From: Trypanosoma brucei
Lineage: Eukaryota
Length of the DNA stretch: 64,000 nucleotides
Assembly: GCA_000002445.1 (NCBI GenBank)
Contig: AE017150.2
Span: forward strand, 64,001 to 128,000
Reading direction: 5' to 3'
The position numbers and the translations under genes are program-made. Shown here one piece after another: positions 5,223-56,244 of the stretch (position 1 is the stretch's first letter; every line of letters starts with the position of its first letter). Below the pieces are notes generated by a model. The model had not been told where the DNA came from and searched no databases. It was given only the letters and a program-made list of their open reading frames with translations.

Positions 5223-8200
5223 AATATCAAATGTAATAGAGCAAGATAATGTTTATTCACTATAGTTTGTATAATATGATATCATAATGTATTTGGTATT
5301 GAGAGGAACAATTTCAAAATATAGCAGCTGTAAATAAATATTTCCCTTGCTTCATCATCATGTTCTAAAAATAATTAATTTCCTGCATCATTCTTTCTAA
5401 ACCATATATAATATGGAAACAAAAAATATTACTGCCTCATATACATGCATCAACACTACGTATATATAATCAATATTTAAAGAGAGTCAAATTCTATCAA
5501 TTAAAATCAAGTAAAACAAAAAACAAAAAAATTTATGGATATTAATGAAGCGAAGAAAAAGAGTATCGGCACAACACATAGATATATACACACATGAATA
5601 CACACCACACAATTGCTTCTTTATACATCCTCCCCATTTTTACAATTCATAATATTCACTTGCATTGAATAAACTCATTGAAAATATAAATCACCTATCC
5701 CCTCCCCCGTGTATTCACTTACTTCCAAAGGAGAATATTAAATAATGTCTGTAGGACAGGTAAAAAAAAAAAACTGATAGTCTTTTTGCATCAGATAACC
5801 AGAGAGTATTTCTGTTTACTTTCATAATAAACAAAAACATTCTTTCACCTTCAGTTAAAATAAAATTGATTTACTTGCCTCCTTACTGTTCACAACCATC
5901 AACAACTAATTCAGCCCCACATATTCACATGTATTTTATGTGCCATCGTTGTTTGATTCATTCACACATCTTCCATGATGGTGATGATACAACATATGAA
6001 AAATTATTGAAATACAATTAATACAATTATTTGAGGAACCCATGAAAGACTATCATAACATATCTTTTATTTTCCCTCCTTTCATTTACAAAAATTAAAT
6101 ATGTAATGAGACAATTCCCTTTCAGTACGTGTCCACACTTATTGTATCATCATTGTAAGTTTCCTATTGCTCACATACACAGAGCTATTGGAACAACAAA
6201 AACATAAAACAACACATCTAAACAACTTGATAAAATATATAATAAATAAATAAAGGTAATAAAGAGAATGAGCGTGAACAGACAGATAATAAAATGAAAC
6301 ACGTCTCGTACTTTCCTTATAAATATTCAATAGTTGGCGGATTACAAATAAAAACAATTACACATTATAGAAAGGAAAGGATATAATTACATTATACACC
6401 TGCATGTGGATATGTAACAGTGAGTCATAGTAGAAATAAATTGTCTAAACACAATAGTTATGGAAGATAAAATAATTCAAAATATCAATAATATTATTCT
6501 ATCAACATTCCCTTCCTTCTCCATTAAGTTTTCAATGGATTTAAATAATAATTCACATAATCCCATACATATGTTATGACGGGTATTGCATGCAGTACAA
6601 TTTAAAGGAAGTGAAACTCATATAACATTTTCAAAAAAAAAAGGCATTGAATGGTTGTTTGCTACCATCAATTACATTTCCAATGCCTAATTACACTTTT
6701 GTATGCATGAAGGAAGTTACTGATGATAACTTTGACATGCTCGAGAATCCATAACACAAAGCGACTGCTGCATGCAATAAAAAATAAAAATATAAATAAC
6801 ATCCGAATTCATTTACTGACAGATGAGTGCAATTCATTCATCCAAACTTCATAGCTGTAAACATAAACTCGTTGCTGCCAATAGGAAATAATCCCGCATA
6901 AATATTGAGTATCTGAAAATGATAGCAACGGGTTTCCATTTTTGAAATATATACATAAAATACATGAGGTATATGAAGTCATATTGGTAAAGTGTCACTA
7001 CGCATGTTGCAATTTACTATCAAAAGTGTATGCCTTATTTTATTTCTTGTGTTACTGTAACTCATGAGTATTATTCATTATTCTTTACAATACAACTGTA
7101 AGTCATTTTGCATTTTTACATATTTCCTTATTCTCTCATGCTGGAAGTATTCCACATATGAGATTCCTCAATATCGTTCACAAATAAAAATAATTTTATT
7201 TACTTCTGCATTCAGTTTCTTGTGCAGCAGTGTGTGTACTAATCATCCATAAAGTTTTTAATTTGCCAAATACATCATTACGAAACTATTTTCATACACA
7301 TGCACAAACAAACCGTTGGGACAATATCTTTGAGGAATTTCCTTCACTATATTTGCAGTTCAGTAGTAATTAAAATACACTTTTTGTATAATTCAACACA
7401 TGGTGGAATTGCAAAGAAATGTGATGGTACTTATAATCAATAAGTTCCCAATTTTCCTCACATGGTCTCTTTTCATGCCTTTCCACACATATATAATTCA
7501 CAGAGAATTACTGCAATATCCTTCATATGCTTTCAGGATTCCATATGTCACAATACAAATAATATACATTTACACATATATATAATTTGGACAGCATATT
7601 GCTTAACATATAAATTATCACAAACCTATGATATTACACTCCTCCTAAGAATAATAGAATCAAATCATTTCTATTTTGCATCATTACATGAAGCTTTGGA
7701 AAAGAAAAAAAAAGAATCAAACAAAAGGTAATGTAAAGAACACAGTTTCATAATACAGATTATAACTTGTTTGTGAATTTCAGATGCAAACACAAAATGT
7801 TCAAACAGTAAAACAGTAAAGGATAGTACTGGTGATGTAAGCACAAATTAATCAAAAATAGAAACATAAATAAAATTGAAACTTATAAAAACACAAATAT
7901 ATATGATACAAATATTTACCACATATTATAATTCGCCACCCTCACACTTGAATTAGAAAGAGTACATAACACACATATGTGGTAAAACTAATACAACTCG
8001 AGTATACGTATGTGCCATCTTCATAACATAATCATTCTAATATTTACTCAGTATGTGTGTCTGTGTGTGTGTCTGTGTGTGTAGAAATGATGAAATGTAA
8101 TTGTAACAAATCAGGCACAACACAAACAAAATATATGAATTATATTATTCTCTAAAAAGTAGAAGAATAAAAATCAAGAAATATTACGCAGCTTTTCTCA

Positions 8201-10100
8201 CAAGTAATTTTGTTTCTGTATATATATATATACATATATAACACGACAGCTGACAACATTAAACTCTCAATTCCATAATATCTGACACCTGAAGTGATAA
8301 TTAGCAGCGGATGCCTTTAACAAAAAACAACAGAAATAACAACATCAAAGCATGTTTTGAAAGCTTAAATAAACTTCCTCATGGATAAACCATTTGTACG
8401 AAGTTTGAGTGCCAAGTTGGAGGAACAAAGAAAAAATAAAAAAAGAAGAATTAAATGGTAAAACAATTGCGTGTGATATAACTAAAGGATTTGTTAGGCA
8501 CTACACTCATTAAACTCCAGTTTCATAAAAATACTGCAAGGCATAATATTTACTGCTTTACCGGTTATGTGCCTCCAGCAAGCAATAATAAATACTTCGA
8601 GTATTATTCAATTTCTGATGCTATGAAGTGTGTAATAAATTAGTGCGGGAGCAAAATATTCAAATGTTGGTGTTCACTTCAAATTATAACCTCTGCACTA
8701 TGAATGTCTCTCGATGTTTATAATTTGAGAGAGCAAAAGTGACGGCGCTATTACTTATTTCTTCCAGTTCATGAATACATACACATATTTATACATATAT
8801 AATCAGAGGTGACACGCAAAAGCGTTTAAACATCAGGCATGAACATCTTTCCATTCAAAGTAAGACGATACAATAAGGTAAGTTTAGGATGAAGTGAAGG
8901 TATCATAATGTTAATATCTTCCTTCAAGCGGAGGATTCAATTCAAATAGGCGTACTTCACAAACAATAGTAAAATAACTGAGAAAACTTATATCACTTAA
9001 TCGTTATTTCCTTCAATTCTTATTTTGAATCGCTCTGTACCGTCACACCTTCAATAAAGTATATAGTGACGCATTTCATACATCCTCCCTAAGCCATCTC
9101 TCATAGTCATTAGCTCTCAACAGCAATAATAACAAATAATGAATAGTTTAGTTCTTACCTTCCCTTTTTTACTACCAACAAGAAAGATATACGAAATAAT
9201 TATCATACTGAATAAACAGTAGGCGTTCCTCATTATCCTACACAAAATATGAATTGAAACGATAATTTACTAACGGAGCGGAAGTGTCTGAAAGCGTCTT
9301 TAACTCGTCTCCTGTGCGGGGCGAAGAGGGTTGTGTTGTGTGGGCTTTCTAAAAATTTCACTCTCTTGCAGACAGCTGTGTAAATAAACGGGGAGTACAG
9401 GTGTGTTTAGAGAAAGATAACCGTACAAAATAATACTCTGCACTCCTATGACCAAAACAACCATTCGTAATGCAGGTTTTCAAAATACACGATATCATCT
9501 CAACAAATTGTAATTTTTTTTTGCATAATGTCCTCCAGAAGACAGAACAACAGATGACACAGTTAAATAACACATGACAAACAAGGAATATAACCGCACA
9601 TCCTCAGCAGTAAATGTTTCAGTTTCTCCTTTAAAAAAAAAAAAGAAAAATAAAACAGTTTCACACGTGTGGTCCAAAAGCTGCATCAGCCAATACAATA
9701 TCTTGACAGCTTGTCACGCAGTCTTGCCTCAAGAAGAAAATAAATCATTCATCTCTGCTTTCCTTAGTTGATAAATGAGATCCCATGCTGTGTTAACTCC
9801 CGTCTCCATTCAAAAAGTTGACTCAACGTTATGACGAGGCAGTGACCAAAAACAATCCAAATGCAATTCTAAATTTCTTCATATTACGTTTTCAGTTTTA
9901 TTACACATTTCCCCAACCATTCCAAGTACTAACAGGAATAATTTGGTTCTATAATAATGCATGTGTTTTCTACAGCTCTTTCATTTTGTTATGATCCGCA
10001 CAAAAATTATATATGTGGTTGTTGATTCGTCCTGTCAATCAAAGTAACAATCATAATAATTAATTTTCCCCTTTTCTTCATTTTTTCTATTAGCACATGT
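5223..10100. repeat. Full-length inter-RHS AT-rich spacer: type-C 5'-flank, upstream module and distal spacer module.
   Basis: Colinear with 36587-41560. Partially colinear with 15725-19840 and 47270-50230. Contains variable (TG)n/(TC)n at 8050-8090 and poly-A tracts. Confidence 0.75.
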
Positions 10101-10129
10101 GCACCTTGGTGAGATCACTTTCACTCATT

Positions 10130-12500
10130 TGCACTGATTGGTCAACACTATTTAGTTCGTTATTCAACACACTCCCTTACATGTCCTCCTCTCACCATTT
10201 ATAACCCACACGAGCAGCATCAAATATAAATTGTGAAGAGGTATGAGATCACAAGGAGCTCGCTCTCATTGAGAAGGTTGGATGCGTCATATATATATAA
10301 TCATGTAATCCCTTTCCATTTCAACAATACGCAAACCTCAACTGCGGAATCGACTTTGAATGAGTTGACCTCGTCAGCATGAAACGGGGCCCGCCAAGTG
10401 GCATGAACATTAATCTTATCAGTAAACATGTGTTTGAGGTGTTGGTAATAAATGGGGTCAAAGAAAACATAAGTGCGTATCATCTTCCCCGTTATGCCCG
10501 AGTGGAAAATATACATCATCTCCGTGAAGATAATTGTATCCATGTTGTATCAATTCCTCATCCAGCTCTTCATCCTTATCAGTACCCAAACGAAGTGCCA
10601 TCGCCTAACTTTTTCCGTGAATGCACTCACACCTTTGAGCTAACGAGTTCCAGCAACTTTGCAACTGTCATACGGCTCGGGAATCCATGAGAATTTATGA
10701 TCATATCTGTGCAAATGCCTTTACTCATTGAAGGGCATGTTAACACACCATCAGTCATGAGATCCACTACTCCCTCCAGCCAGCGCCGTGAGGAAAACTT
10801 ATTTCAGACCTCGGGACCGCGAACTTCTCTCGTAGTAACTTTAACTTTATTGTTCTACATCCATTGATATATCCGAGTCACTGGAAGGTGAGAGATGAAC
10901 ACATTTGGTCCACAACAGCAGGCTGAGGGTATTTATTATATTCAAGAAAATTAGGTCTTGGTTCCTTGAAAGGCACGGGAGTGTATTTGTTTACAAAAAT
11001 ATCAAACTGACAAACAGCCGCACCTTTACTACTGGCAATACCATCACTACTAAAGGCATTGTGTCTCGCAACATTCCAATCTGTTGGAAGAATTATATCA
11101 TACATACTCACCGTTGGGAAGTCTTTCCAGTTCCATCTCATGCTTACAAAAAACAACATAGCACCCATAGCCACAATTGAGCGAACTGCGGTTGTGTACA
11201 CCTTTGCGTCTTCAATATTGTAACCTCTATAGCTCATAATGCATACCATCGTATTAATTCCTGCACCTAATATTTCGTAGTTGCTTAGGTTCATAGCCTT
11301 CGTCCGGCAAAGGGACAGTTGAGAGTAAGCACTCAACATAAGTACTGTGTCCATTTCTAATGTACTGAATATACGCAATGGTTCCAACAGCTTGCTTGCC
11401 CATGGCTGACTGTAATGTGTTTCGTGCAAATTGATTGTGATGTGGAAAGGAAAATAATGCTAGCGACAACTCCAAGTGAGCCTCGTGTACTGCTCAATGT
11501 CTTTGTGGTGAACTGCTATAAGAGAGTCATTCGCTTCGTCATATAAGTCAATGAATTCCACAACAAGCCCTCAACTAAAATATCGTTAATCGATCACTTG
11601 CTTGAACTCAAGTTATCCAGATGTTAAGAAATTACAGCGTGTTTCCCATCGCAAACGAAAACATACAACCTCACGATCCTTCCGCCAACACAAACAATTT
11701 GAACACTCTTCTGACGGTCATTTATCGCAATTGAAACGTAAGGATGCAAGCGGCCTGTGTTCCTCAGGGTTCGTAATACATCCCGACACAAACGGCTCAT
11801 GTATCGATAAACGCACATCAGCACTTCATTGAGGAAAACTGTGTAGTATTTAAGAAATTCGTTAAGACTGATATAATCTATTTCCTCCACTCCAATATTG
11901 TACGCATCCGCGTGTAAACAAACAAATTATCCATGTCTAGTGTTACCTGACTAAGAATGGCAAAATTATTAACCAAACAGCAACAACTTTCACCCTCTGG
12001 GGTATCGCAAGGAGGGATATACACCATTCCCCATTGACTTGAATAGAGAAATAATGATCCGCACATGTGGGTCAATAGACGAGGCCATGGTCACTCCACT
12101 GCTGCCGTTACATATGATCACTGCATGGTTTTTATATCAATGTTGATGATGATGTGGGATTTGCTGCTGGAGGCAACCAACAACATAAGTTTAAGGTTGC
12201 CACGTGTGAAGAGAGGCCCAACTGCCAACCCTCAACCAGGATAACAGAAGTGATTATAAGGAAAGAGAAGACAACATATCATAGTATGTTTACCCACCGA
12301 CAAATAACTGAAGAAAGAGAGAGAGAGAGAAAGAGAGGAAAATAGAAACAATCACGTCACCAGCTGCGTGTCTGCGAAGAACACCATCAAGAGCTGCTCC
12401 ATAACTGCAACCATAACTAACATGTATAATATAATTATAACAGCTCGTATATGAAACAGCACATCCAGTAACTGCTTCTAATGTTTGCATATTTCACTCC
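10130..12500 (-). pseudogene. Truncated, frameshifted RPB2-family pseudogene (DNA-directed RNA polymerase second-largest subunit). It covers only the C-terminal ~40%. Copy 1 of 4.
   Basis: Minus-strand ORF fragments carry hallmark motifs of the RPB2 family, compared here with yeast Rpb2 as I recall it. 11878..12075: 'SQWGMVYIPPCDTPEGESCCCLVNNFAILSQVT' (cf. [30 protein letters not shown]). 11624..11890: 'DVLRTLRNTGRLHPYVSIAINDRQKSVQIVCVGGRIVRLYVFV' (cf. [43 protein letters not shown]). 11254..11475: '[22 protein letters not shown]' (cf. [22 protein letters not shown]). 10878..11429: 'SYRGYNIEDA' (cf. SGYNQEDS). 10301..10543: 'FFDPIYYQHLKHMFTDKINVHA' (cf. [22 protein letters not shown]). By-hand translation near 10170-10200 shows a C-terminal CCSC cysteine cluster. 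The pieces are colinear but sit in different frames. Confidence 0.65.
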
Positions 12501-13150
12501 GTCACAATCTCTCTCCCATGACACCTACTGGAAACACAACTCAGAGGAGTTATAGTTGAGGCATGTTTCCAATACGCCCTCTCCACCACGGATGGCAAAG
12601 AAGCAAAAAGTACTATTACATTTTTGTTCCTTTTATCATTGGCCTATAGATCCTTATCTCTACACGGATGTAAAATTTAGATTGTATAAATGAAAAGAAG
12701 ATGTGAAAAGTTAGTGTAGTATAATCCAATTCTTTAGTTAGTAACAGCACAAATGAAAACAAAACGTTACAATGTTTTCCTACGTCCGTCGATAACATTA
12801 TTTCTGTCTTTCTCTGTGCCCCTTAAGATTACGATGTGGCTTAACTCCAGTTACGCGTTAGCCGATAAAATACTACTTTTGCTATTCCTTAGTCGTCTTC
12901 ATTTCCACTTCCCTTCCCTCACCTCCGGCACTCAAGTGAATTATCACGTCCCTTTCCTTGCAGCAGCTGAGGAAGCTCATTACTGGTGGACAAACAACAC
13001 ACTTGGAAAGGCGCAACGGGGCACTTCAAGTTGTGATCATAAACCAAACCAGGCACAAAAACGAACCCGCTCCCCCTAATGGTTGGTTCCCTCCTCTTTA
13101 AGCATTTGTCACTCTTAACAGCAACGCCGTGCACTGCTACAAAAAAACAA

Positions 13151-15724
13151 TTACGCGTCTTCACCTCCTTCCACGTCGTCCATTGCTACGTCACCTCGCC
13201 CCTCCACAACCTCTTCACGAGCGCGCCGCCTTCCCGCCAGTCCGATCAATGCCGGTGCATCTCGCATGCCAGATTCTCGGCGATATGCCCGAATTAATTC
13301 CGCTTGCATCGTTTCCTTGAGTGTCACTTGGAATTGGTCGATGGATTCCCAAAATGTTTGTGGTCCCAGAGGACCTCCGTCCTCACCTTGATCTCTATCG
13401 GGAGGTCCTTCGCAAAGTTGCCTGATGGTTATCGTGCCACCGTTAACCGAATTAATGTATATCATCTCCCAAACCATGTTGCGGGAAAACGCACCCCAAT
13501 CAGAAAAATATCTTTCCATGTTTTTTCGGAACTTCTGCACCTTATCCGTAGTGGTGGGGTGCCTCTCCGACTTGGTTACTTGTAAAAGCACAGCTATATT
13601 TGGAGTGGTCGGTGGCGCTGCTCCGTCACGGTTTCTCCTGAACCGCCCCTCAACGAAAAAAAAGCCATCCACCACGGGTTCATTGCCTGTGGCAGGGAGG
13701 TAGAGAACCATGTATTCACAATTATCAATTGGTTGCTGTCTGGCCGCAGGTAAGGCCTTCTGCCCAATGAGTCTCAACTGCTGAGGAGCCATGTCGTTCA
13801 GTATGTTTCGACGGTCAGCTATTTCTCTGCCTCGTCGCAGGTATTTCAAGTTGTCTGCGATAACTTTAAAAACTCGAGGGAAAAGAAGCGAAAGCAACGC
13901 AAGCCTTTCAAAAGCGTTGGCCCCAACACACTCGTCTGATAATGTAATCTCCTTTGACGTCATCTCCACAATAAGAATGCCAAATAATGTGCAAATCAAC
14001 ATATTCCAAATGTTGACAGAAAGCGATCTGCAACGATATGAATCGACATTGACAGTCCCAGAGCTTACCCGCACTATCTTCACCAATTTGTGCGTTACCT
14101 TATCATTTTGCCAGCCCTTAGATTTACTAATAATCTTATCATATTTCTTTCCGTTATCGCTATCGAGCTGCCTAGCTTCTTTACGCACACTTTCCAGTCG
14201 TGCGTCATAGTCAGAGACTGAGAAAACAAAACGAGGCAGTGGACCAACCATGTCAATGCGCTCTTCCACAATTTTCCACTCGCTTTCAAGGTCCTCCATT
14301 AACTGCTGCTTCGTCTTGTCGCGCGGCACCTCCTCCGAAAGCACACACAGCTTTTTCCATGCCACAAATGCCTTCATGTCACGCACATCATCACAGTTTA
14401 TAATAATTTGGCGGTCTCCCGTGTCCTTTGCCCACTCCTCGTAATGTGCCGTATCCGGGGAAGTAAGGACAGTTACACCCCAACTCAAATGGCGCAGCTC
14501 ACCAGGCGGTTTAAGTAGGTCGTTACCGATGTCAACAATGATGTGACCTCTTTTATTTTCTAACGCATCCATAGCCGTAATAGCATTCTTTGAGACCACA
14601 TACTTTTCAACCCTCCCCTCTTCTCCGGGTTTCTTGTTATATATTAAGAAAGCGATTTCTCCCACGAAATATGCAACAACATCAAGCATTCCATCATTGA
14701 AGTGAAGCAATGAATGAAGCAAAAATGATCCAACTCCATACGACTTTCCAATACCAGGTGTACCAATAACAATATGTATCGGTGTTCTCTGAGCTGTCTT
14801 TTCCACCCACCATGCTTGTAACCCTCGTTGGATTATATACCACACGCGCATAATTTCACGACGGATGTATACATGTTTAAAATTGTTCTTGCGTATATTA
14901 ACGTCCCTCGATGCAAACCTGTTGTATGGCCAACCCTTCTCCGAAGTGAGAACAAAAATCTCCAAACCATAAGGTCTCTCCGGCACTCGTGCATCAACAT
15001 TCGCAGGAAGAGGAGTTATATCCACCTCCTCCTTCGTCCACATGTGCGGCGGTCTGCCATCGAACACTTTCATGCCAAGTGGCTCTTCATCATAACCCGA
15101 CATTACATAACTCCATTTTGCATTATAAATGGAATCATACACTCCTTTAATTTCGACAGCACTAGCAGCTGTTTGGGCAGCCCGTTCCAATGCTACATTG
15201 AGTGCATTATTCAGTAGCGCATTGACAACAATCCAAAGCCGCTCTCCATCTCTCAGTCCACGAATATTCACCTGTAACCCGGCCTTTACTACCTCATCTG
15301 CTTGTTGCCACTGCTGAAGATCCAATATTCCCTCATCCTCAAAGAAACCATAGACGCTGACAAAACGTTTGTACACTTTATACTCTGCCGTCGCGAATAT
15401 TAGATTGAGCGCATTAACGTCATTAATATACTCTTCAGGTTCCAGTACGAACACAAACATTGATACATTATTTTCTTCATTCACATTATATCTTCTGCCA
15501 AAATTACGCCTCAAAAAATCATTTACACTCACATTTTCAGGATGGACCCGACCTTCCAGCAAAACTGCGTCAACGCGGCTGAAAAGACTCCATTGTGGTT
15601 GGTTGTTATTCTCCACTCGCTGCTGCACTGCTGGAGGTTCCGCATCGTTACGCGCAGCCTCCTCATTTTCTCGTCTCCTTCCCTCAATATCACCCCTTCC
15701 TTCAATAGGAACCTGTTGATTCAT
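13151..15724 (-). CDS. RHS: Retrotransposon hot spot (RHS) protein, type-B N-terminus (MNQQVPIEGRGD...). Intact.
   Basis: 857-aa uninterrupted ORF. P-loop 'IVIGTPGIGKSYGVGSFLLHSLLHF' is encoded around 14745-14770. Conserved RHS blocks are present. The C-terminus is '...EEVVEGRGDVAMDDVEGGEDA'. Confidence 0.9.
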   Translation of the reverse strand: MNQQVPIEGRGDIEGRRRENEEAARNDAEPPAVQQRVENNNQPQWSLFSRVDAVLLEGRVHPENVSVNDFLRRNFGRRYNVNEENNVSMFVFVLEPEEYINDVNALNLIFATAEYKVYKRFVSVYGFFEDEGILDLQQWQQADEVVKAGLQVNIRGLRDGERLWIVVNALLNNALNVALERAAQTAASAVEIKGVYDSIYNAKWSYVMSGYDEEPLGMKVFDGRPPHMWTKEEVDITPLPANVDARVPERPYGLEIFVLTSEKGWPYNRFASRDVNIRKNNFKHVYIRREIMRVWYIIQRGLQAWWVEKTAQRTPIHIVIGTPGIGKSYGVGSFLLHSLLHFNDGMLDVVAYFVGEIAFLIYNKKPGEEGRVEKYVVSKNAITAMDALENKRGHIIVDIGNDLLKPPGELRHLSWGVTVLTSPDTAHYEEWAKDTGDRQIIINCDDVRDMKAFVAWKKLCVLSEEVPRDKTKQQLMEDLESEWKIVEERIDMVGPLPRFVFSVSDYDARLESVRKEARQLDSDNGKKYDKIISKSKGWQNDKVTHKLVKIVRVSSGTVNVDSYRCRSLSVNIWNMLICTLFGILIVEMTSKEITLSDECVGANAFERLALLSLLFPRVFKVIADNLKYLRRGREIADRRNILNDMAPQQLRLIGQKALPAARQQPIDNCEYMVLYLPATGNEPVVDGFFFVEGRFRRNRDGAAPPTTPNIAVLLQVTKSERHPTTTDKVQKFRKNMERYFSDWGAFSRNMVWEMIYINSVNGGTITIRQLCEGPPDRDQGEDGGPLGPQTFWESIDQFQVTLKETMQAELIRAYRRESGMRDAPALIGLAGRRRAREEVVEGRGDVAMDDVEGGEDA

Positions 15725-19840: not shown

Positions 19841-22240
19841 CACCTTGGTGAGATCACTTTCACTCATTTGCACTAATTGGTCAACACCATTTAGTTCGTT
19901 ATTCAACACACTCCCTTACATGTCCTCTTCTCACCATTTATAACCCACAGGAGCAGCATCAAATATAAATTGTGAAGAGGTATGAGATCACAAGGAGCTC
20001 GCTCTCATTGAGAAGGTTGGATGCGTCATATATATATAATCATGTAATCTTTTTCCATTTCAACAATACGCAAACCTCAACTGCGGAATCGACTTTGAAT
20101 GAGTTGACCTCGTCAGCATGAAACGGGGCCCGCCCAGTGGCATGAACATTAATCTTATCAGTAAACATGTGTTTGAGGTGTTGGTAATAAATGGGGTCAA
20201 AGAAAACATAAGTGCGTATCATCTTCCCCGTTATGCCCGAGTGGAAAATATACATCATCTCCTTGAAGATAATTGTATCGATGTTGTATCAATTCCTCAT
20301 TCAGCTCTTCATCCCTATCGGTACCCAAACGAAGTGCCATCGCCTAACTTTTCCATGAATGCACTCACGCCTTTGAGCTAACGAGTTTCAGCAACTTTGC
20401 ATCTGTCATACGGCTGGGGAATCCATGAGAATTTATGATCATATCTGTGCAAATGCCTTTACTCATTGAAGGGCATTTTAACACACCATCAGTGATGAGA
20501 TCCACTACTCCCTCCAGCCAGCGCCGTGAGGAAAACTTATTTCAGACCTCGGGACCGCAAACTTCTCTCGTGGCAACTTTAACTTTATTGTTCTACATCC
20601 ATTGATATATCCGAGTCACTGGAAGGTGAGAGATGACCACATTTGGTCCACAACAGCAGGCTGAGGGTATTTATTATATTCAAGAAAATTAGGTCTTGTT
20701 TTCATGGAAGGCACGGGAGTGTATTTGTTTACAAAAATATCAAACTGACAAACAGCCGCACCTTTACTACTGGCAATACCATCACTACTAAAGGCATTGT
20801 GTCTCGCAACATTTCAATCTGTTGGAAGAATTATATCATACATACTCACCGTTGGGAAGTCTTTCCAGTTCCATCTCATGCTTGCAGAAAACAACACGCC
20901 ACCCATAGCCACAATTGAGCGAACTGCGGTTGTGTACACCTTTGCGTCTTCAATATTGTAACCTCTATAGCTCATAATGCATACCATCGTATTAATTCCT
21001 GCACCTAATATTTCGTAGTTGCTTAGGTTCATAGCCTTCGTCCGGCAAAGGGATAGTTGAGAGTAAGCACTCAACATAAGTACTGTGTCCATTTATAATG
21101 TACTGAATATACGCAATGGTTCCAACAGCTTGCTTGCCCATGGCTGACTGTAATGTGTTTCGTGCAAATTGATTGTGATGTGTAAAGGAGAATAATGCTA
21201 GCGGCAACTCCAAGTGAGTCTCGTGTACTGCTCAATGTCTTTGTGGTGAACTGCTATAAGACAGACATTTGCCTTGTCATATACGTCAATGAATTCCACA
21301 ACAAACCTTCAGCTAAAATATCGTTAATCGAGCACTTGCCTGAACTCAAGTTATCCAGGTGTTGAGAAATTACAGCGTGTTTCCCATCGCGAACGACAAC
21401 ACACAACCGCATGATCCTTCTGCCAACACAAACAATTTGAACACTCTTCTGACGGTCATTTATCGCAATTGAAACGCAAGGATGCAAGCGGCCTGTGTTC
21501 CTCAGGGTTCGTAATACATCCCGACACAAACGGCTCATGTATCGATAAACGCACATCAGCGCTTCATTGAGAAAAACTGTGTAGTATTTAAGAAATTCGT
21601 TAAGGCTGATACAATCCATTTCGTACACTCCAATATTGTACGCATCCGCATGTAAAAAAAAAACAAATTATCCATGTCTAGTGTTACCTGACTAAGAATA
21701 GCAAAATTATTAACCAAACAGCAACAACTTTTACCCTCTGGGGTATTGCAAGGAGGGACATACACCATTCCCCATTGACTTGAATAGAGAAATAAGTCCG
21801 CACATGTGGGTCAATAGACGAGGCCATGGTCACTCCACTGCTGCCGTTACATATGATCACTGCATGGTTTTTATATCAATGTTGATGATGATGTGGGATT
21901 TGCTGCTGGAGGCAACCAGAAACATAAGTTTAAGGTTCCCACGTGTGGAGAGAGGCCCAACTGCCAACCCTCAACCAGGATAACAGAAGTGATTATAAGG
22001 AAAAAGACAACATATCATAGCATGTTTACACACCGACACATAATTGAAGAAAGAAAGAGAGAGAGAGGAAAATAGAAACAATCAGGTCACCAGCTGCGTG
22101 TCTGCGAAGAACACCATCAAGAGCTGCTCCATAACTGCAACCATAACTAACATGTATAATATAATTATAGCAGCTCGTATATGAAACAGCACATCCAGTA
22201 ACTGCTTCTAATGTTTGCATATTTCGCTCCGTCACAATCT
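19840..22240 (-). pseudogene. RPB2-family C-terminal pseudogene fragment, copy 2.
   Basis: ORFs 20040..20258, 20814..21092, 20992..21213, 21254..21628, 21556..21768 and 22026..22235 repeat the same motif series as copy 1. The frameshift pattern differs slightly: 21254..21628 fuses two of the copy-1 pieces. Confidence 0.6.
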
Positions 22241-22880: not shown

Positions 22881-25463
22881 TTACGCGTCTTCACCTCCTT
22901 CCACGTCGTCCATTGCTACGTCACCTCGCCCCTCCACAACCTCTTCACGAGCGCGCCGCCTTCCCGCCAGTCCCATCAATGCTGGTGCATCTCGCATGCC
23001 AGATTCTCGGCGATATGCCTGAATTAATTCCGCTTGCATCGTTTCCTTGAGTGTCACTTGGAATTGGTCGATGGATTCCCAAAATGTTTGCGGTCCCAGA
23101 GGACCTCCGTCCTCACCTCTATCTCTATCGGGGGGTCCTCCGCAAAGTTGCCTGTGGGTTATCGTGCCACCGTTAACCGAATTAATGTATATCATTTCCC
23201 AAGCCATGTTACCCGAAAACGTGTTCCAGTCGGAAAAATAACTTGCTATGTTTTCTCGGAACTTCTGCACCTTATCCGTAGTGGTGGGGTGCCTCTCCGA
23301 CTTGGTTACTTGTAAAAGCACAGCTATATTTGGAGTGGTCGGTGGCGCTGTTCCGTCACGGTTTCTCCTGAGCCGCCCCTCAACGAAAAAAAAGCCATCC
23401 ACCACGGGTTCATTGCCTGTGGCAGGGAGGTAGAGAACCATGTGTTCACAGCGTTCAATTGGTCGCTGTTGGGCCGCAGGTAAGGCCTTCTGCCCAATGA
23501 GTCTCAACTGCTGAGGAGCCATGTCGTTCAGTATGCTTCGACGGTCAGCTATTTCTCTGCCTCGTCGCAGGTATTTCAAGTTGTTTGCGATAACTTTAAA
23601 AACTCGAGGGAAAAGAAGCGAAAGCAACGCAAGCCTTTCAAAAGCGTTGGCCCCGACACTCTCGTCTGACATTATAATCTCCTTTGACGTCATCTCCACA
23701 ATAAGAATGCCAAATAATGTGCAAATCAACATATTCCAAATGTTGACAGAAAGCGATCTGCAACGATATGATTCGACATTGACAGTCCCAGAGCTTACCC
23801 GCACTATCTTCACCAATTTGTGCGTTACCTTATCATTTTGCCAGCCCTTAGATTTACTAATAATCTTATCATATTTCTTTCCGTTATCGCTATCGAGCTG
23901 CCTAGCTTCTTTACGCACACTTTCCAGTCGTTCGTCATAGTCAGGGGCTGAGAAAACAAAACGAGGCAGTGGACCAACCATGTCAATGCGCTCTTCCACA
24001 ATTTTCCACTCGCTTTCAAGCTCCTCCTTTAACTGCTGCCTCGTTTTGTCGCGCGGCACCTCCTCCGAAAGCACACACAGCTTTTTCCATGCCACAAATG
24101 CCTTCATGTCACGCACATCATCGCAGTTTATAATAATTCGGCGGCCTCCCGTGTCCTTTGCCCACTCCTCGTAATGTGCCGTATCCGGGGAAGTGAGAAC
24201 AGTTATACCCCAACTCAAATGGCACAGCTCATCAGGCGGTGTAAGTAAGCGCTTACCGATGTCAACAATGATGTGCCCTTTTTTTTTCTTGGATACTAAC
24301 GCAGCTATTGCGTCAACGGCATCTTCCGGGACTTTATACCTCTCAACCCTCCCCTCTTCTCCGGGTTTCTTGTTATATATTAAGTAAGCGATTTTACCCA
24401 CGAAATATGCAACAACATCAAGCATTCCATCATTGAAGTGAAGCAATGAATGAAGCAAAAATGATCCAACTCCATACGACTTTCCAATACCAGGTGTACC
24501 AATAACAATATGTATCGGTGTTCTCCGAGCTGTCTTTTCCACCCACCATGTTTGCAGCCCTCGTTGGATTATATACCACACGCGCATAATTTCACGACGG
24601 ATGTATACATGTTTAAAATTGTTCTTGCGTATATTAACGTCCCTCGATGCAAACCTGTCGTATGGCCAACCCTTCTCCGAAGTGAGAACAAAAATCTCCA
24701 AACCATTGGGTCTCTCCGGCACTCGTGCATCAAGATTCGCAGGATCAGGAGTTATATCCACCTCCGCTTCGGTCCATATGCGCTGTGGTTTTCCATTAAA
24801 CACTTTCATTCCAAGTGGCTCTCTACGATAACCCGACATTACATAACTCCATTTCGCATCATAAATGGAATCATACACTCCTTTAATTTCGACAGCACTA
24901 GCAGCTGTTTGGGCAGCTCGTTCCAATGCTACATCGAGTGCATCATTCAACATGTTAGTGACAATAATCCAAAGCCGCCCTCCATCTCTCTGTCCACGAA
25001 TATTCACCTGTAACCCGGCCTTTACTACCTCATCTGCTTGTTGCCAGCGCTGAAGATTCAATATTCCCTCTCTGAACAACAGGGGGTAAGCAGTAGCAAA
25101 AACTTTGTACACTTGATACTCTGTTGTCGCGAATATTCGATTGAGCGCATTAACGTCATTAATATACTCTTCGCATCGTTGTACAAAGGCAAACATTGAT
25201 GCTCTCAGGAGACGTTGATCCAAGTCGATATCATCGAGTAAATTACGCCTCAAATAATCATTTACACTCACATTTTCAGGATGAGCCCGACCATTCAGCA
25301 AAACTGCTTCAATGCAGCTGAAAAGTCTCCATTGTGGTTGGTTATTATTCTCCACTCGTTGCTGGACTGCTGGAGGTTCCGCATCGTTACGCGCAGCCTC
25401 CTCACGCTCTCGTCTCCTTCCCTCAATGTCACCCCTTCCTTCAATAGGAACCTGTTGATTCAT
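22881..25463 (-). CDS. RHS: Retrotransposon hot spot (RHS) protein, type-B. Intact.
   Basis: 860-aa ORF. Close to 13151..15724 but has internal patches matching other paralogs. Contains a homopolymer run encoding 'SKKKKGHIIVD' at about 24270-24300. Confidence 0.9.
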   Translation of the reverse strand: MNQQVPIEGRGDIEGRRREREEAARNDAEPPAVQQRVENNNQPQWRLFSCIEAVLLNGRAHPENVSVNDYLRRNLLDDIDLDQRLLRASMFAFVQRCEEYINDVNALNRIFATTEYQVYKVFATAYPLLFREGILNLQRWQQADEVVKAGLQVNIRGQRDGGRLWIIVTNMLNDALDVALERAAQTAASAVEIKGVYDSIYDAKWSYVMSGYRREPLGMKVFNGKPQRIWTEAEVDITPDPANLDARVPERPNGLEIFVLTSEKGWPYDRFASRDVNIRKNNFKHVYIRREIMRVWYIIQRGLQTWWVEKTARRTPIHIVIGTPGIGKSYGVGSFLLHSLLHFNDGMLDVVAYFVGKIAYLIYNKKPGEEGRVERYKVPEDAVDAIAALVSKKKKGHIIVDIGKRLLTPPDELCHLSWGITVLTSPDTAHYEEWAKDTGGRRIIINCDDVRDMKAFVAWKKLCVLSEEVPRDKTRQQLKEELESEWKIVEERIDMVGPLPRFVFSAPDYDERLESVRKEARQLDSDNGKKYDKIISKSKGWQNDKVTHKLVKIVRVSSGTVNVESYRCRSLSVNIWNMLICTLFGILIVEMTSKEIIMSDESVGANAFERLALLSLLFPRVFKVIANNLKYLRRGREIADRRSILNDMAPQQLRLIGQKALPAAQQRPIERCEHMVLYLPATGNEPVVDGFFFVEGRLRRNRDGTAPPTTPNIAVLLQVTKSERHPTTTDKVQKFRENIASYFSDWNTFSGNMAWEMIYINSVNGGTITHRQLCGGPPDRDRGEDGGPLGPQTFWESIDQFQVTLKETMQAELIQAYRRESGMRDAPALMGLAGRRRAREEVVEGRGDVAMDDVEGGEDA

Positions 25464-30930: not shown

Positions 30931-33431
30931 ACCTTGGTGAGATCACTTTCACTCATTTGCACTGATTGGTCAACACTATTTAGTTCGTTATTCAACACAC
31001 TCCCTTACATGTCCTCTTCTCACCATTTATAACCCACACGAGCAGCATCAAATATAAATTGTGAAGAGGTATGAGATCACAAGGAGCTCGCTCTCATTGA
31101 GAAGGTTGGATGCGTCATATATATATAATCATGTAATCCCTTTCCATTTCAACAATACGCAAACCTCAACTGCGGAATCGACTTTGAATGAGTTGACCTC
31201 GTCAGCATGAAACGGGGCCCGCCAAGTGGCATGAACATTAATCTTATCAGTAAACATGTGTTTGAGGTGTTGGTAATAAATGGGGTCAAATAAAACATAA
31301 GTGCGTATCATCTCCCCCGTTATGCCCGAGTGGAAAATATACATCATCTCCTTGAATATAATTGTATCCATGTTGTATCAATTCCTCATTCAGCTCTTCA
31401 TCCTTATCGGTACCCAAAGGCATTGCCATCGCCTAACTTTTCCGTGAATGCACTCACGCCTTTAAGCTAACGAGTTCCAGCAACTTTCCATCTGTCATAC
31501 GGCTCGGGAATCCATGAGAATTTATGATCATATCTGTGCAAATGCCTTTACTCATTGAAGGGCATGTTAACACACCATCAGTGATGAGATCCACTACTCC
31601 CTCCAGCCCGTGCCGTGAGGAAAACTTATTTCAGACCTCGGGACCGCGAACTTCTCTCGTAGCAACTTTAACTTTATTGTTATACATTCATCGATATATC
31701 CGAGTCACTGGAAGGTGAGAGATGACCACATTTGGTTCACAACAGCAGGCTGAGGGTATTTATTATATTCAAGAAAATTAGGTCTTGGTTCCTTGAAAGG
31801 CACGGGAGTTTATTTGTTTACCAAAATATCAAACTGACGAATAACCGCACCTTTACTACTGGCAATACCATCAATATTAAAGGCATTGTGTCTCGCAACA
31901 TTTCAATCTGTTGGAAGAATTATATCATACATACTCACCGTTGGGAAGTCTTTCCAGTTCCATCTCATGCTTACAAAAAACAACACGCCACCCATAGCCA
32001 CAATTGAGCGAACTGCGGTTGTGTACACCTTTGCGTCTTCAATATTGTAACCTCTATAGCTCATAATGCATACCATTGTATTAATTCCCGCATCTAATAT
32101 TTTGTAGTTGCTTAGGTTCATAGCCTTCGTCCAGCAAAGGGATAGTTGAGAGTAAGCACTCAACATAAGTACTGTGTCCATTTCTAATGTACTGAATATA
32201 CGCAATGGTTCCAACAGTTTGCTTGCCCATGGCTGACTGTAATGTGTTTCGTGCAAATTGATTGTGATGTGGAAAGGAGAATAATGCTAGCGACAACTCC
32301 AAGTGAGTCTCGTGTACTGCTCAATGTCTTTGTGGTGAACTGCTATAAGATAGTCATTCGCTTCATCATATAAGTCAATGAATTCCACAACAAACCTTCA
32401 GCTAAAATATCGTTAATCGAGCACTTGCCTGGACTCAAGTTATCCAGGTGTTAAGAAATTACGGCGTGTTTCCCATCGCTAACGAAAACATACAACCTCA
32501 CGATCCTTCCGCCAACACAAACAATTTGAACAATATTCTGGCGGTCATTTATCGCAATAGAAACATGCTGATGCAAGCGGCCTGTGTTCCTCAGGGTTCG
32601 TAATACATCCCAACACAAACGGCTCATGTATCGATAAACGCACATCAGCACTTCATTGAGGAAAACTGTGTAGTATTTAAGAAATTCGTTAAGGCTGATA
32701 TAATCTATTTCCTCCACTCCAATATTGCACGCATCCGCATGTAAACAAACAAATTATCCATGTTGAGTGTTACCTGACTAAGAATAGCAAAATTATTAAC
32801 CAAACAGCAACAACTTTTACCCTCTGGGGTATCGCAAGGAGGGATATACACCATTCCCCATTGACTTGAATAGAGAAATAATGATCCGCACATGTGGGTC
32901 AATAGACGAGGTCATGACCACTCCACTGCTGCCGTTACATATGATCACTGCATGGTTTTCGTATCAATGTTGATGATGATATGGGATTTGCTGCTGGAGG
33001 CAACCAACAACATAAGTTTAAGGTTCCCACGTGTGGAGAGAGGCCTAACTGCCAACCCTCAACCAGGATAACAGAAGTGATTATAAGGAAAGAGAAGACA
33101 ACATATCATAGCATGTTTGCACACCGACAAATAATTGAAGAAAGAGAGTAAAAGAGAGAGAGAGAGAGAGGAAAATGGACACAATCACGTCACCAGCTGC
33201 GTGTCTGCGAAGAACACCATCAAGAGCTGCTCCATAACTGCAACCATAACTAACATGTATAATATAATTATAACAGCTCGTATATGAAACAGCAAATCCA
33301 GTAATTGCTTCTAATGTTTGCATATTTCGCTCCGTCACAATCTCTCTCCCATGACACCTACTGGAAATACAACTCAGAGGAGTTTTAGTTGAGGCATGTT
33401 TCCAATACGCTCTCTCTACCACGGATGGCAA
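30930..33431 (-). pseudogene. RPB2-family C-terminal pseudogene fragment, copy 3.
   Basis: ORFs 31129..31371, 31903..32256, 32081..32302, 32451..32717, 32705..32902 and 33081..33431 carry the same motif series ([65 protein letters not shown]). Confidence 0.6.
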
Positions 33432-34072: not shown

Positions 34073-36586
34073 TCACCTCCCCTGTGCCTTTTCTGCCTTC
34101 TGAAAGGCAATCATCAGCTGTGCATTCATTTCGTCCCTCAACGTTACCTGGAATTGTTCAATCGTTTCCCAAAATGTTTGCAGTTGTTCCGCCTGCCTGG
34201 CAGGGATAACTTCGTCGTCGTTCGCCTCACATTTTTGCCAATTGGTAATTACGGCGCCATCCACTGAGTTTATGTATATCATTTCCCAAGCCATGTTACC
34301 CGAAAACGTGTTCCAGTCGGAAAAATAACTTGCTATGTTTTCTCGGAATTTCTTCACCTTCGCCGTGGTGGTGGGGTGCCTGTCTAACTTGGTTATTTGT
34401 AAAAGGACAATTGTCTTCGGTTTTGGCGCTTTTTTCGCTTGCCTTCCAGGCGACATCGTGAAGCGCCCCTCAACGAAAAAAAAGCCATCCACCACGGGCT
34501 CGTTGGCAGTAGAGGGAGTGTAGAGCACCATGTATTCACACTTCTCAATTGGTTGCTGGCCGGCCGTTGGTAAGAACTCCGATCCAGTGAGGCACAACTG
34601 CTGAGGAGTCATGCTACTCAGTATACTTTGCTTTCCCCTCAGCTTCTCAGGTGGACGGAGGTGTCTCAAGTTCTTTGCCATCACCTCGAGAACTTGAGGA
34701 TTGACTATCGCAAACAACGCATGGCTTTCAAATGAAATGGAAGCGGCACTTCTGTTTCCCATCATGAGCTGGGACTCTGCTGTTTTTCGCGCAGTAATGC
34801 CAAGCAGCGCCCAAAGTAGCAAGATCCTTATGTGTCCGGACAGCTCTTTGCAGCGATATGAATCTCCGGAAACTCCATTTCCACGTGCACGGACTATCTG
34901 TACCAACTTGTGCGACACCTTTTCAGTTTGCCAGTTCACTGATGACCTAAAAAGATCCTCGTAACCACTTTTATCATTAGCATCGAGGCCTCTTATTTTT
35001 TTTGCCATAGCCTCCATTCGCACGCCGTGCCCCACAGCGTCGTAAACGGCACGAGGCACCGGGCCGGCCACTGCAATACGCTGCTTTACAGTTTCCCATT
35101 CGTCCTTTAGTCTTCCTCTTAACTCTTGTTTCGCCGTGTTGGATACCTTTTCACCTAATGCTACTGATAAATTCTTCCATGCCACAAACGCCTTCATGTC
35201 ACGCACATCATCGCAGTTTATAATAATATGGCGGCTTCCCGTGTCCTTTTCCCACTCCTCATAATGTGCCGTATCGGGGGAAGTGAGGACAGTTATACCC
35301 CAATCCAAATGGCGCAGCTCACCAGGCGGTATAAGTAGTTCGTTACCGATGTCAACAATGATGTGACCTCTTTTTTTCTCGAATACTAACGCAGCTATGG
35401 CGTCAACGGCATCTTCCGGGACTTTATACCTCTCAACCCTTCCCTCTTCTCCGGGTTTCTTGTTATATATTAGGTAAGCGATTTTACCCACGAAATACGC
35501 AATGACATTAAACATTCCATCATGGAAGTGAAGCAGTGAATAAAGCAAAAATGATCCAACACCGTATGATTTACCAATACCAGGTGTACCAATAACAATA
35601 TGTCTCGGTGTTATCCGAGCTGTCCTTTCCACCCACCATGTTTGCAGCCCTCGTTGAATTATATACCACACGCGCATAATTTCACGACGGATATACACAT
35701 GTTTATAAATTTCCTCGCACCTCTCAGTGTCACTTGTTTTAAACCTGTTGTATGGCCAACCTTCCTCCGAAGTGAGAACGAAAATCTCCAAACCATCGGG
35801 TCTCTCCTCAATCTCTGCATCAACATTGGTAGGATCAGGAGTTATATCCACCTCCGCTTCGGTCCAAATGCTCTGTGGTCTTCCATCGAACACTTTCATT
35901 CCAAGTGGCTCTCTACGATAACCCGACATTACATAACTCCATTTCGCATTATAAATGGAATCATATAATCCTTTCAGTTCGACAGCACCACCAGCTGCTA
36001 GGACAGCTCGCTTTTCCGCTCTCTTGGCGGCCGCCAACGCTCCATCCAACCTTCCCCTCGCCATGGGACCAACAAATTCTCTTATTTCCACTGTCCCCTT
36101 CTCCTCCCACTGACTGAGGTAGTAAATTTCCTTTTCATCAAGGTACTCTACCTTCTCAGACAGATCAATAGCTGTCTTCACTGTTTTAAACTCATCAGTG
36201 CCTTGTATATCCTCAAGAATCTCAGCATCAACAATATATCTTCTGGGATTCTTAACAAACAAAAACATGGCCACATTCTCTGTGTTATACGTGTTTGAGA
36301 AGTATTGATTCAAAAGGTCATGCAATTTCATATTACGCAGAACCTCATACCGTTGCAGCAGCGCATCTTCCAGCAGCACATTCCTCACCTTACTATCCAT
36401 CGTCCAGTTGGGCCTCTCTTCAGTTCTCTGCCGTATTTGTGGAGGCTGAGCAGCAGCAGCAGCAGCAGCAGCAGGAGGCGGTACATTTTCATCTCGCGGT
36501 CTCCTCATGGGCCCTTCAATATTACCTGCCACTTGTTGGTTTTCATTATTTCCTTGTGGAGCTGCGGGACTATTTGCTCTTGACAT
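34073..36586 (-). CDS. RHS: Retrotransposon hot spot (RHS) protein, type-C N-terminus (MSRANSPAAPQGNNENQQVA..., poly-Ala). Intact.
   Basis: 837-aa ORF. P-loop 'IVIGTPGIGKSYGVGSFLLYSLLHF'. Conserved RHS blocks. Its unique 3' flank diverges from the other units after 'ccagttacacgttagcc'. Confidence 0.9.
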   Translation of the reverse strand: MSRANSPAAPQGNNENQQVAGNIEGPMRRPRDENVPPPAAAAAAAAQPPQIRQRTEERPNWTMDSKVRNVLLEDALLQRYEVLRNMKLHDLLNQYFSNTYNTENVAMFLFVKNPRRYIVDAEILEDIQGTDEFKTVKTAIDLSEKVEYLDEKEIYYLSQWEEKGTVEIREFVGPMARGRLDGALAAAKRAEKRAVLAAGGAVELKGLYDSIYNAKWSYVMSGYRREPLGMKVFDGRPQSIWTEAEVDITPDPTNVDAEIEERPDGLEIFVLTSEEGWPYNRFKTSDTERCEEIYKHVYIRREIMRVWYIIQRGLQTWWVERTARITPRHIVIGTPGIGKSYGVGSFLLYSLLHFHDGMFNVIAYFVGKIAYLIYNKKPGEEGRVERYKVPEDAVDAIAALVFEKKRGHIIVDIGNELLIPPGELRHLDWGITVLTSPDTAHYEEWEKDTGSRHIIINCDDVRDMKAFVAWKNLSVALGEKVSNTAKQELRGRLKDEWETVKQRIAVAGPVPRAVYDAVGHGVRMEAMAKKIRGLDANDKSGYEDLFRSSVNWQTEKVSHKLVQIVRARGNGVSGDSYRCKELSGHIRILLLWALLGITARKTAESQLMMGNRSAASISFESHALFAIVNPQVLEVMAKNLRHLRPPEKLRGKQSILSSMTPQQLCLTGSEFLPTAGQQPIEKCEYMVLYTPSTANEPVVDGFFFVEGRFTMSPGRQAKKAPKPKTIVLLQITKLDRHPTTTAKVKKFRENIASYFSDWNTFSGNMAWEMIYINSVDGAVITNWQKCEANDDEVIPARQAEQLQTFWETIEQFQVTLRDEMNAQLMIAFQKAEKAQGR
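36451..36474. repeat. (CAG)8 / (CTG)8 trinucleotide repeat encoding the poly-Ala tract of RHS 34073..36586. The paralog has (CAG)5 at 47152-47166.
   Basis: Direct count in the sequence. The protein reads PPPAAAAAAAAQPP versus PPPAAAAQPP in 44732..47269. Confidence 0.85.
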
Positions 36587-56200: not shown

Positions 56201-56244
56201 ACAAGATAACTTTCTTGATGAATTTCATTCATGATCGCACGCGT
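50231..56244. other. ORF-poor, GC-richer, non-repetitive region lying between the leftward-transcribed RHS array and the rightward-oriented genes. The leading interpretation is a divergent strand-switch region that may include degenerate element debris.
   Basis: No ORF longer than 209 aa in any frame. No recognisable protein motifs in the longest ORFs (50630..51082, 51135..51764). The base composition differs clearly from the AT-rich spacers. Flanking gene orientation is minus to the left and plus to the right. Confidence 0.4.

What the first reader, a model, noticed from the sequence alone, without database searches (positions are those of the whole stretch)
10130..12500. Every type-B/C RHS repeat unit also carries a C-terminal fragment of an RPB2-like gene
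Four colinear, frameshifted copies lie at 10130-12500, 19840-22240, 30930-33431 and 41560-43890. Each sits immediately downstream of an RHS gene on the same strand. They encode the series [14 protein letters not shown]-like, RTLRRKG...VYRP-like, [19 protein letters not shown]-like, GYNQEDS-like, [22 protein letters not shown]-like and a C-terminal cysteine cluster. This series is diagnostic of the second-largest subunit of multisubunit RNA polymerases. Only the last ~450 residues are represented, and the RHS gene occupies the position where the N-terminal ~750 residues would be. So an RPB2 3' portion was captured and then amplified together with RHS. The two type-A units (genes at 2766 and 27628) lack it. 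It is also a notable coincidence that RHS proteins have been linked to Pol II transcription in T. brucei. Whether the fragment is transcribed or translated in any copy is unknown.
Basis: partly seen in the sequence, partly recalled or inferred. Interest (0 to 1): 0.7.

Follow-up and report, generated by a model that had tools for sequence, protein, structure and literature searches.

The report
Dead Pol III subunit fragment in RHS repeats
Four of the six RHS repeat units in this trypanosome window carry the same decayed, truncated piece of the gene for the second-largest subunit of RNA polymerase III (RPC2, not RPB2), a non-coding passenger copied along with RHS, which is ordinary and probably already reported.

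Summary
Four about 96% identical copies of a second-largest-subunit RNA polymerase pseudogene lie on the minus strand at 10205-12060, 19944-21789, 31033-32887 and 41668-43518. Each starts 1.1-1.2 kb downstream of an RHS gene. The two other RHS units lack it.

The interpretation needs three corrections.
- The source is RPC2 of RNA polymerase III, not RPB2. The stitched fragment scores 408/405 bits against RPC2, at most 266 against RPB2 and at most 175 against RPA2. It is closest to RPC2 of the genus Trypanosoma.
- It covers RPC2 residues about 477-1080 of 1130, roughly 604 residues. That is more than the "last ~450". The final ~50 residues are not detectable.
- RHS does not sit where the N-terminus would be. 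About 1.1 kb of unrelated sequence with a polypyrimidine tract lies between them.

Each copy has about 17 frameshifts and 4-6 stops. At least 12 frameshifts and 3 stops are shared by all four copies. The fragment has changed 27% of the positions that are invariant across kinetoplastids. Differences between copies show no codon-position bias, and the fragment diverges at the same rate as the flanking spacer. It was therefore dead before it was amplified and has drifted neutrally since.

From memory only, the 2003 T. brucei chromosome II paper mentions "truncated RNA polymerase pseudogenes" among RHS genes. I could not check this here. Interest is low.

The parts
10205..12060 (-). RPC2 pseudogene fragment, copy 1 (RPC2 residues ~477-1080). 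About 17 frameshifts and 5 in-frame stops. Contains the only long ORF (10878-11429, 183 aa, TTG start).
19944..21789 (-). RPC2 pseudogene fragment, copy 2
31033..32887 (-). RPC2 pseudogene fragment, copy 3
41668..43518 (-). RPC2 pseudogene fragment, copy 4
12061..12958 (-). Conserved non-coding linker between the RHS 3' flank and the RPC2 fragment. It shows no RPC2 similarity. It is shared by all four units as far as 12874, and by copies 1, 2 and 4 as far as 12958.
12311..12350 (-). Polypyrimidine, (CT)n-rich tract. It is present in all four units and varies in length. It is followed directly by AG only in copy 1. A role as a trans-splicing and polyadenylation signal is inferred, not shown.
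13151..15724 (-). RHS gene upstream of copy 1 (857 aa; DUF7578 + RHS_N + RHSP)
22881..25463 (-). RHS gene upstream of copy 2 (860 aa)
34073..36586 (-). RHS gene upstream of copy 3 (837 aa)
44732..47269 (-). RHS gene upstream of copy 4 (845 aa)
7313..10204 (-). AT-rich non-coding part of the module that is present only in the units carrying the RPC2 fragment. Type-A units jump from the RHS 3' flank straight to the equivalent of 7313-5368.

Best explanation
This is a dead, doubly truncated pseudogene fragment of RPC2 (C128), the second-largest subunit of RNA polymerase III, from the trypanosome's own lineage. A DNA segment covering RPC2 codons ~477-1080 came to lie about 1.1 kb downstream of an RHS gene. 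It lost its reading frame and accumulated many substitutions. It was then copied passively as part of a roughly 10.5-kb RHS repeat unit, by tandem or segmental duplication and gene conversion within an RHS array, giving four copies in this window. It encodes no protein and evolves neutrally. Shown here: its identity, its extent, its decay, the shared lesions, and neutrality between copies. Inferred: the order of events and a DNA-level origin rather than retroposition. Any transcription would be read-through of the polycistronic unit, not a function.
For: Identity as RPC2:
- A T. vivax ORF, the only database relative of the raw fragment, scores 132 bits against RPC2, 71 against RPB2 and 53 against RPA2.
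- Stitched copy 1 scores 408/405 bits against RPC2, at most 266 against RPB2 and at most 175 against RPA2, and aligns to human RPC2 residues 471-1084.
- The uninterrupted 183-aa ORF also ranks RPC2 first.

Origin within Trypanosoma:
- Summed tblastn bits are 707-722 for T. rangeli, T. theileri and T. cruzi RPC2, against 566-640 for other kinetoplastids.
- A neighbour-joining tree attaches the fragment to the Trypanosoma RPC2 clade.

Decay:
- Each copy has about 17 frameshifts and 4-6 stops.
- The fragment consensus differs at 95 of 353 positions invariant in 10 kinetoplastid RPC2 proteins.
- The active-site motif GDKFSSRHGQKG reads V*NKFSSRRWLEG.

Dead before amplification:
- At least 12 frameshift positions and 3 stops are shared by all four copies.
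- 84 of the 95 changes at invariant positions are shared by all four copies. Only 4-13 changes per copy are private (counted at the 486 positions invariant in the four Trypanosoma proteins).

Neutral drift since amplification:
- Variable sites by codon position are 43/31/45 (p=0.23).
- Identity between copies in the fragment is 96.2-96.7%, the same as in the adjacent non-coding spacer.

Passenger status:
- The fragment is one part of a module of about 5.6 kb shared by the four units and missing from the two type-A units.
Against: The species' own functional RPC2 gene could not be retrieved. No salivarian RPC2 other than a frameshifted T. vivax locus came back. The time of origin and the exact breakpoints therefore rest on proxies. 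No expression data could be examined, so a non-coding role cannot be excluded. The frameshift count depends on alignment penalties and may be a few too high. The stitched protein was built against an RPC2 reference, which biases it, although searches do not have this bias.
Confidence: 0.9

Rival explanations
1. The fragment derives from RPB2, the Pol II second-largest subunit. This was the first reader's working label, with a hinted functional link to the role of RHS in Pol II transcription.
For: The Pfam families that match are named Rpb2 domains. These families cover the second-largest subunits of all the polymerases. RPB2 structures do match significantly.
Against: RPC2 outscores RPB2 by about 140 bits for the stitched fragment and by about 60 bits for the T. 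vivax relative. RPC2 also ranks first for the unstitched ORF. All named close database relatives are RPC2.
Confidence: 0.02
2. The fragment has been taken over as a non-coding functional element. One version: it is the body of a trans-spliced non-coding RNA whose polypyrimidine tract sets the polyadenylation site of the upstream RHS mRNA. Another version: it is a source of antisense RNA or siRNA acting on RPC2 mRNA.
For: A polypyrimidine tract lies about 250 nt upstream of the fragment in all four units. RHS arrays and some pseudogenes are reported sources of siRNAs in T. brucei (PMC3683921, PMC3447711).
Against: The fragment is no better conserved between copies than the flanking spacer and shows no positional constraint. 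The AG directly after the tract is lost in three of four copies. Type-A RHS units function without the module. With about 69% amino-acid identity to functional RPC2 proteins, long perfect matches to RPC2 mRNA are unlikely, but this was not tested.
Confidence: 0.05
3. It is a processed pseudogene made from RPC2 mRNA by the ingi/RIME reverse-transcriptase machinery, with 5' truncation.
For: RHS genes are known hot spots for ingi/RIME insertion (established knowledge). 5' truncation is typical of LINE-mediated retroposition.
Against: The 3' end of the coding region (the last ~50 codons) is undetectable. No 3' UTR was identified, and no poly(A) tail follows the fragment. No flanking target-site duplication was seen. 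The fragment lies outside the RHS coding region, where retroelements usually insert.
Confidence: 0.03

Closest known systems
'Truncated RNA polymerase pseudogenes' interspersed with RHS genes in the 250-kb RHS region of T. brucei chromosome II (El-Sayed et al. 2003, Nucleic Acids Res 31:4856). Recalled from memory of the abstract; the paper is not held in the library.
   Same: It describes truncated RNA polymerase pseudogenes lying between RHS (pseudo)genes, in a region that also holds ESAG3/4 pseudogenes. This window has RHS arrays and an ESAG4-like adenylate cyclase pseudogene.
   Different: I could not confirm that the published loci are these sequences. I also could not confirm whether the paper names the subunit (RPC2), the extent (residues 477-1080), or the strict association with certain RHS unit types.
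Functional RPC2 (C128, POLR3B) of trypanosomatids, e.g. the T. rangeli, T. cruzi and T. theileri proteins P0123, P0122 and P0121
   Same: Colinear homology over residues 477-1080 at about 69% amino-acid identity after frame correction. Domain order is Rpb2 3(end)-4-5-6.
   Different: It lacks 476 N-terminal and about 50 C-terminal residues. It carries about 17 frameshifts and 4-6 stops. The catalytic-centre motif is destroyed, and 27% of kinetoplastid-invariant positions are changed.
Other passenger pseudogenes of trypanosome subtelomeres (ESAG and VSG pseudogenes, RHS pseudogenes)
   Same: It is a decayed gene copy carried in a repeated, recombination-prone region, and it is homogenised between copies.
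   Different: The parent is a single-copy housekeeping gene rather than a member of a subtelomeric gene family.
Pseudogene-derived siRNA loci in T. brucei (PMC3447711; PMC3683921)
   Same: A pseudogene sitting in an RHS context that is known to yield small RNAs.
   Different: No evidence here that this fragment yields small RNAs. This was not testable.

Membership tests
RPC2 (RNA polymerase III second-largest subunit)-derived sequence | Scores higher against RPC2 than against the RPB2, RPA2 and archaeal paralogues | tested here: met
   408/405 bits against RPC2, at most 280 archaeal, at most 266 RPB2, at most 175 RPA2. 132 against 71 against 53 for the T. vivax relative. RPC2 ranks first for the raw 183-aa ORF.
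RPC2 (RNA polymerase III second-largest subunit)-derived sequence | Colinear series of Rpb2 domains | tested here: met
   Rpb2_4 and Rpb2_6 are above the curated cut-offs, and the Rpb2_3 end is weak. A single colinear alignment runs over residues 477-1080. Rpb2_5 and Rpb2_7 were not reported by Pfam on the broken frames.
Functional RPC2 gene | Complete uninterrupted ORF with intact catalytic-centre motifs | tested here: not met
   About 17 frameshifts and 4-6 stops per copy. The N-terminal 476 and C-terminal ~50 residues are absent. GDKFSSRHGQKG has become V*NKFSSRRWLEG.
   RPB2 scores about 140 bits lower than RPC2.
Processed (retroposed) pseudogene | Includes the 3' end of the mRNA with a poly(A) remnant and target-site duplications | tested here: not met
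   No similarity to the RPC2 C-terminal tail beyond residue 1080 (observed score 26, shuffled 24±4). No poly(A) run follows. The 3' UTR of the parent gene was not available for comparison.
Neutrally evolving pseudogene | No codon-position bias, and no excess conservation relative to flanking non-coding DNA | tested here: met
   Variable sites by codon position are 43/31/45, p=0.23. Identity is 96.2-96.7% both in the fragment and in the spacer 7300-9645.
Published RHS-array 'truncated RNA polymerase pseudogenes' of T. brucei chromosome II | Sequence identity to, or the same locus as, the annotated pseudogenes | not testable with these tools
Window proteins are not on record in the protein collection. 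The context fits: RHS array plus ESAG4-like pseudogene.

The most novel reading that the evidence does not exclude
The RPC2 fragment is not inert. It would be trans-spliced from the conserved polypyrimidine tract into a non-coding RNA expressed from the RHS array. That RNA, or small RNAs derived from it, would modulate the mRNA of the Pol III subunit RPC2 or set RHS mRNA 3'-end formation. This would link RHS array copy number to Pol III or RHS expression.
Probability: 0.04. Interest if true: 0.55.

Novelty: already known. Interest (0 to 1): 0.15.

Why it matters
It matters little biologically. It is one more decayed passenger in a repetitive RHS array.

It has three practical uses:
- It corrects the label from RPB2 to RPC2 and removes the tempting but false link to Pol II.
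- The many lesions shared by all copies make a convenient marker for tracing the duplication history of RHS repeat units. The substitution estimate suggests the fragment died roughly ten or more times earlier than the copies last diverged or were homogenised.
- It warns annotators and read-mappers that RPC2-like reads and ORFs, such as the 183-aa ORF at 10878-11429, can come from these loci.

Tried and rejected
- **Retrieving the species' own RPC2.** I tried to get it in order to date the fragment. All three homologue searches returned only a frameshifted T. vivax locus and stercorarian or other kinetoplastid RPC2 proteins.
- **Exact look-ups of three window RHS proteins.** These found nothing, so the source record could not be identified.
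- **Extra RPC2 homology outside the fragment.** I searched between the RHS stop and the fragment (12070-13160) and beyond its 3' end (9900-10215). Scores equal those of shuffled controls.
- **RHS next to the functional RPC2 in T. vivax.** Finding this would have suggested capture at an array boundary. No RHS domain lies in the 2.2 kb upstream of that gene.
- **Placement within the genus.** Lineage-informative sites were too few to decide.
- **Literature.** Ten searches and several look-ups by id did not retrieve Bringaud 2002, Hall 2003 or El-Sayed 2003. No held paper mentions the pseudogene.
- **Rfam, tRNA and tandem-repeat scans.** These found nothing relevant in the repeat units.
- **Spacer translations.** Six-frame translations of the AT-rich spacer are full of stop codons, so I did not pursue them.

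Full report
**What is in the window**

The minus strand from about 2.7 to 47.3 kb carries six RHS genes. They lie at 2766-5222, 13151-15724, 22881-25463, 27628-29736 (split into two ORFs), 34073-36586 and 44732-47269. All have the RHS_N and RHSP Pfam domains, and the five unbroken genes also have DUF7578. AT-rich spacers of 29-34% GC separate them. GC skew changes sign near 50 kb. Beyond that point, the plus strand holds a frameshifted receptor-type adenylate cyclase (ESAG4-like) pseudogene and an intact DUF1181 ORF. This is the kind of RHS-rich, expression-site-like region known from Trypanosoma brucei.

**Checking the observation**

- The block 9500-13200 recurs three more times, at 19236-22930, 30477-33707 and 40963-44422, at about 96% identity.
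- I translated the minus strand of 10000-12700 in three frames with stop codons masked. Pfam finds RNA_pol_Rpb2_6 (E=4e-23, spread over all three frames), Rpb2_4 (E=6e-10) and a weak end of Rpb2_3. This is far beyond chance.
- tblastn with nine kinetoplastid RPC2 proteins hits only these four places in the window.
- I wrote a frameshift-aware protein-to-DNA alignment against T. rangeli RPC2. It gives one colinear path per copy: 12060→10205, 21789→19944, 32887→31033 and 43518→41668. These correspond to RPC2 residues 477 (481 in copy 2) to 1080 of 1130, at about 69% identity over about 595 aligned residues.
- Each copy starts 1.09-1.21 kb downstream of an RHS stop codon on the same strand.
- The units at 2766-5222 and 27628-29736 lack the fragment. 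Their 3' flank runs straight into the equivalent of spacer 7313-5368, skipping a module of about 5.6 kb that includes the fragment.

The observation therefore stands. The extent, however, is about 604 residues rather than about 450. The missing N-terminus is 476 residues rather than about 750.

**Which polymerase**

- The only database relative of the raw fragment was a 183-aa T. vivax ORF. It lies in a full-length, frame-broken RPC2 locus (L001:2196-5548).
- That ORF scores 132 bits against yeast RPC2, 71 against RPB2 and 53 against RPA2.
- The stitched copy-1 translation scores 408 and 405 bits against human and yeast RPC2. It scores at most 280 against archaeal subunit B, at most 266 against RPB2 and at most 175 against RPA2. 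It aligns to human RPC2 residues 471-1084.
- The stitching used an RPC2 reference, so I also tested the one uninterrupted ORF (10878-11429). RPC2 again ranks first, at 43.8 and 37.5 bits against at most 33.6 for the next hit, an RPB2-type chain.
- Among kinetoplastid RPC2 proteins, the genus Trypanosoma matches best, with 707-722 summed bits against 566-640 for the others. A neighbour-joining tree places the four copies as one long branch on the Trypanosoma RPC2 clade. Finer placement within the genus could not be resolved.

The fragment therefore derives from the lineage's own RPC2, not from RPB2. The hinted link to RHS and Pol II has no basis in this sequence.

**State of decay and order of events**

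- Each copy has about 17 frameshifts and 4-6 in-frame stops. At least 12 frameshift positions and 3 stops fall at the same RPC2 coordinate in all four copies.
- Of 353 alignment positions invariant in ten kinetoplastid RPC2 proteins, the fragment consensus differs at 95 (27%). Of these changes, 84 are shared by all four copies. At the 486 positions invariant in the four Trypanosoma proteins, only 4-13 changes are private to any one copy.
- The catalytic-centre motif GDKFSSRHGQKG reads V*NKFSSRRWLEG.
- Between copies, variable sites are spread 43/31/45 over codon positions 1/2/3 (p=0.23).
- Pairwise identity in the fragment is 96.2-96.7%. This equals the identity in the adjacent non-coding spacer.

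The fragment was thus already dead and heavily mutated before the present copies diverged or were last homogenised, and it has drifted neutrally since. A rough estimate assumes that positions invariant in functional genes were ancestral. It gives about 0.12-0.14 substitutions per site on the shared stem, against about 0.01 per copy afterwards (inference).

**Ends of the fragment**

- Upstream, 12070-13160 shows no RPC2 N-terminal similarity (score 37, shuffled 35±4).
- Downstream, 9900-10215 shows no similarity to the last ~50 residues (score 26, shuffled 24±4). No poly(A) run follows.
- The fragment is therefore truncated on both sides. This argues for a DNA-level rearrangement rather than retroposition of an mRNA.
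- The linker 12061-12958 is conserved among the units. It contains a length-variable (CT)n polypyrimidine tract at 12311-12350. The tract is followed directly by AG only in copy 1.
- In trypanosomes such tracts direct trans-splicing of the downstream RNA and polyadenylation of the upstream one (established knowledge). Any transcript of the fragment would then probably be separate from the RHS mRNA. This is inference only.

**Most likely explanation**

The fragment is a passenger pseudogene. A piece of RPC2 became lodged in the 3' flank of an RHS gene, decayed, and was then multiplied as part of a ~10.5-kb RHS unit. The multiplication happened by the tandem duplication and gene conversion that build these arrays. 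The units that carry it have RHS genes of more than one C-terminal type (75-81% identity between types). The module has therefore either been exchanged between units or predates their divergence.

**Rivals**

The rivals are RPB2 origin, co-option as a non-coding RNA or siRNA source, and a processed pseudogene. Each is contradicted or left unsupported by the evidence above. Only co-option remains open, because no expression data can be examined here.

**Comparison with what is known**

From memory, the abstract of the T. brucei chromosome II paper (El-Sayed et al. 2003) describes a 250-kb RHS region. It says that interspersed with the RHS genes are "a few copies of truncated RNA polymerase pseudogenes", ESAG3/4 pseudogenes and 76-bp repeats. 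That matches this window closely.

I could not retrieve that paper, or the Bringaud 2002 and Hall 2003 papers. No held paper mentions the pseudogene. The "already known" rating therefore rests on recall plus matching context, not on a check made here. If the recall is wrong, the finding would be a new member of a well-known kind, namely a passenger pseudogene in a subtelomeric repeat.

**Verdict**

It is wrong on the polymerase, the extent and the geometry. The feature is biologically ordinary, and interest is low.

Noticed in passing
window 56100-59200 (+): Frameshifted receptor-type adenylate cyclase (ESAG4/GRESAG4-like) pseudogene. The periplasmic-binding-like domains and the start of the cyclase catalytic domain are split over two frames. 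A (TG)38 microsatellite at 58603-58678 lies inside it.
   Followed up: partly
window 60625-61050 (+): Intact 141-aa ORF matching the whole of Pfam DUF1181 (E=1e-77). From memory, DUF1181 is specific to T. brucei, which would support a T. brucei-group origin for the window.
   Followed up: partly
window 27628-29736 (-): This type-A RHS copy is broken into two ORFs (27628-28671 and 28687-29736), each carrying half of the RHSP domain. It is an RHS pseudogene made by a point disruption, not by a retroelement insertion.
   Followed up: partly
window ~50000: GC skew changes from negative to positive, and the RHS-unit homology ends at about 50235. This looks like a strand switch between the minus-strand RHS array and plus-strand ESAG-like pseudogenes.
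   Followed up: no
window 10878-11429 (-): Copy 1 alone has a 183-aa ORF (TTG start) within the RPC2 fragment. It lacks a stop codon that copies 2-4 share (20816, 31905, 42540). An automatic gene caller could mis-annotate it as an 'RNA polymerase Rpb2 domain' protein.
   Followed up: yes
L001 2196-5548 (T. vivax GCA_021307395.1, contig SOPI01000015.1): The T. vivax RPC2 locus is full length and 84% identical in protein to T. theileri RPC2, yet it is broken into at least 8 ORFs by frameshifts. These are most likely indel errors in the assembly rather than a pseudogene. The gene starts 2.2 kb from the contig end, and no RHS domain was found upstream.
   Followed up: partly
protein collection (not in the window): No intact RPC2 from any salivarian trypanosome (T. 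brucei, T. congolense, T. vivax Y486) was returned. Three RHS proteins of the window are also not on record. The source genome and its close relatives appear to be missing from the searchable collection.
   Followed up: no
window 13151-15724 / 22881-25463 versus 34073-36586 / 44732-47269: The four RHS genes that precede the RPC2 fragment fall into at least two sequence types, 75-81% identical to each other. Even so, they share the same downstream module from about 200-370 bp after the stop codon. The flank and the gene body therefore have different histories.
   Followed up: no
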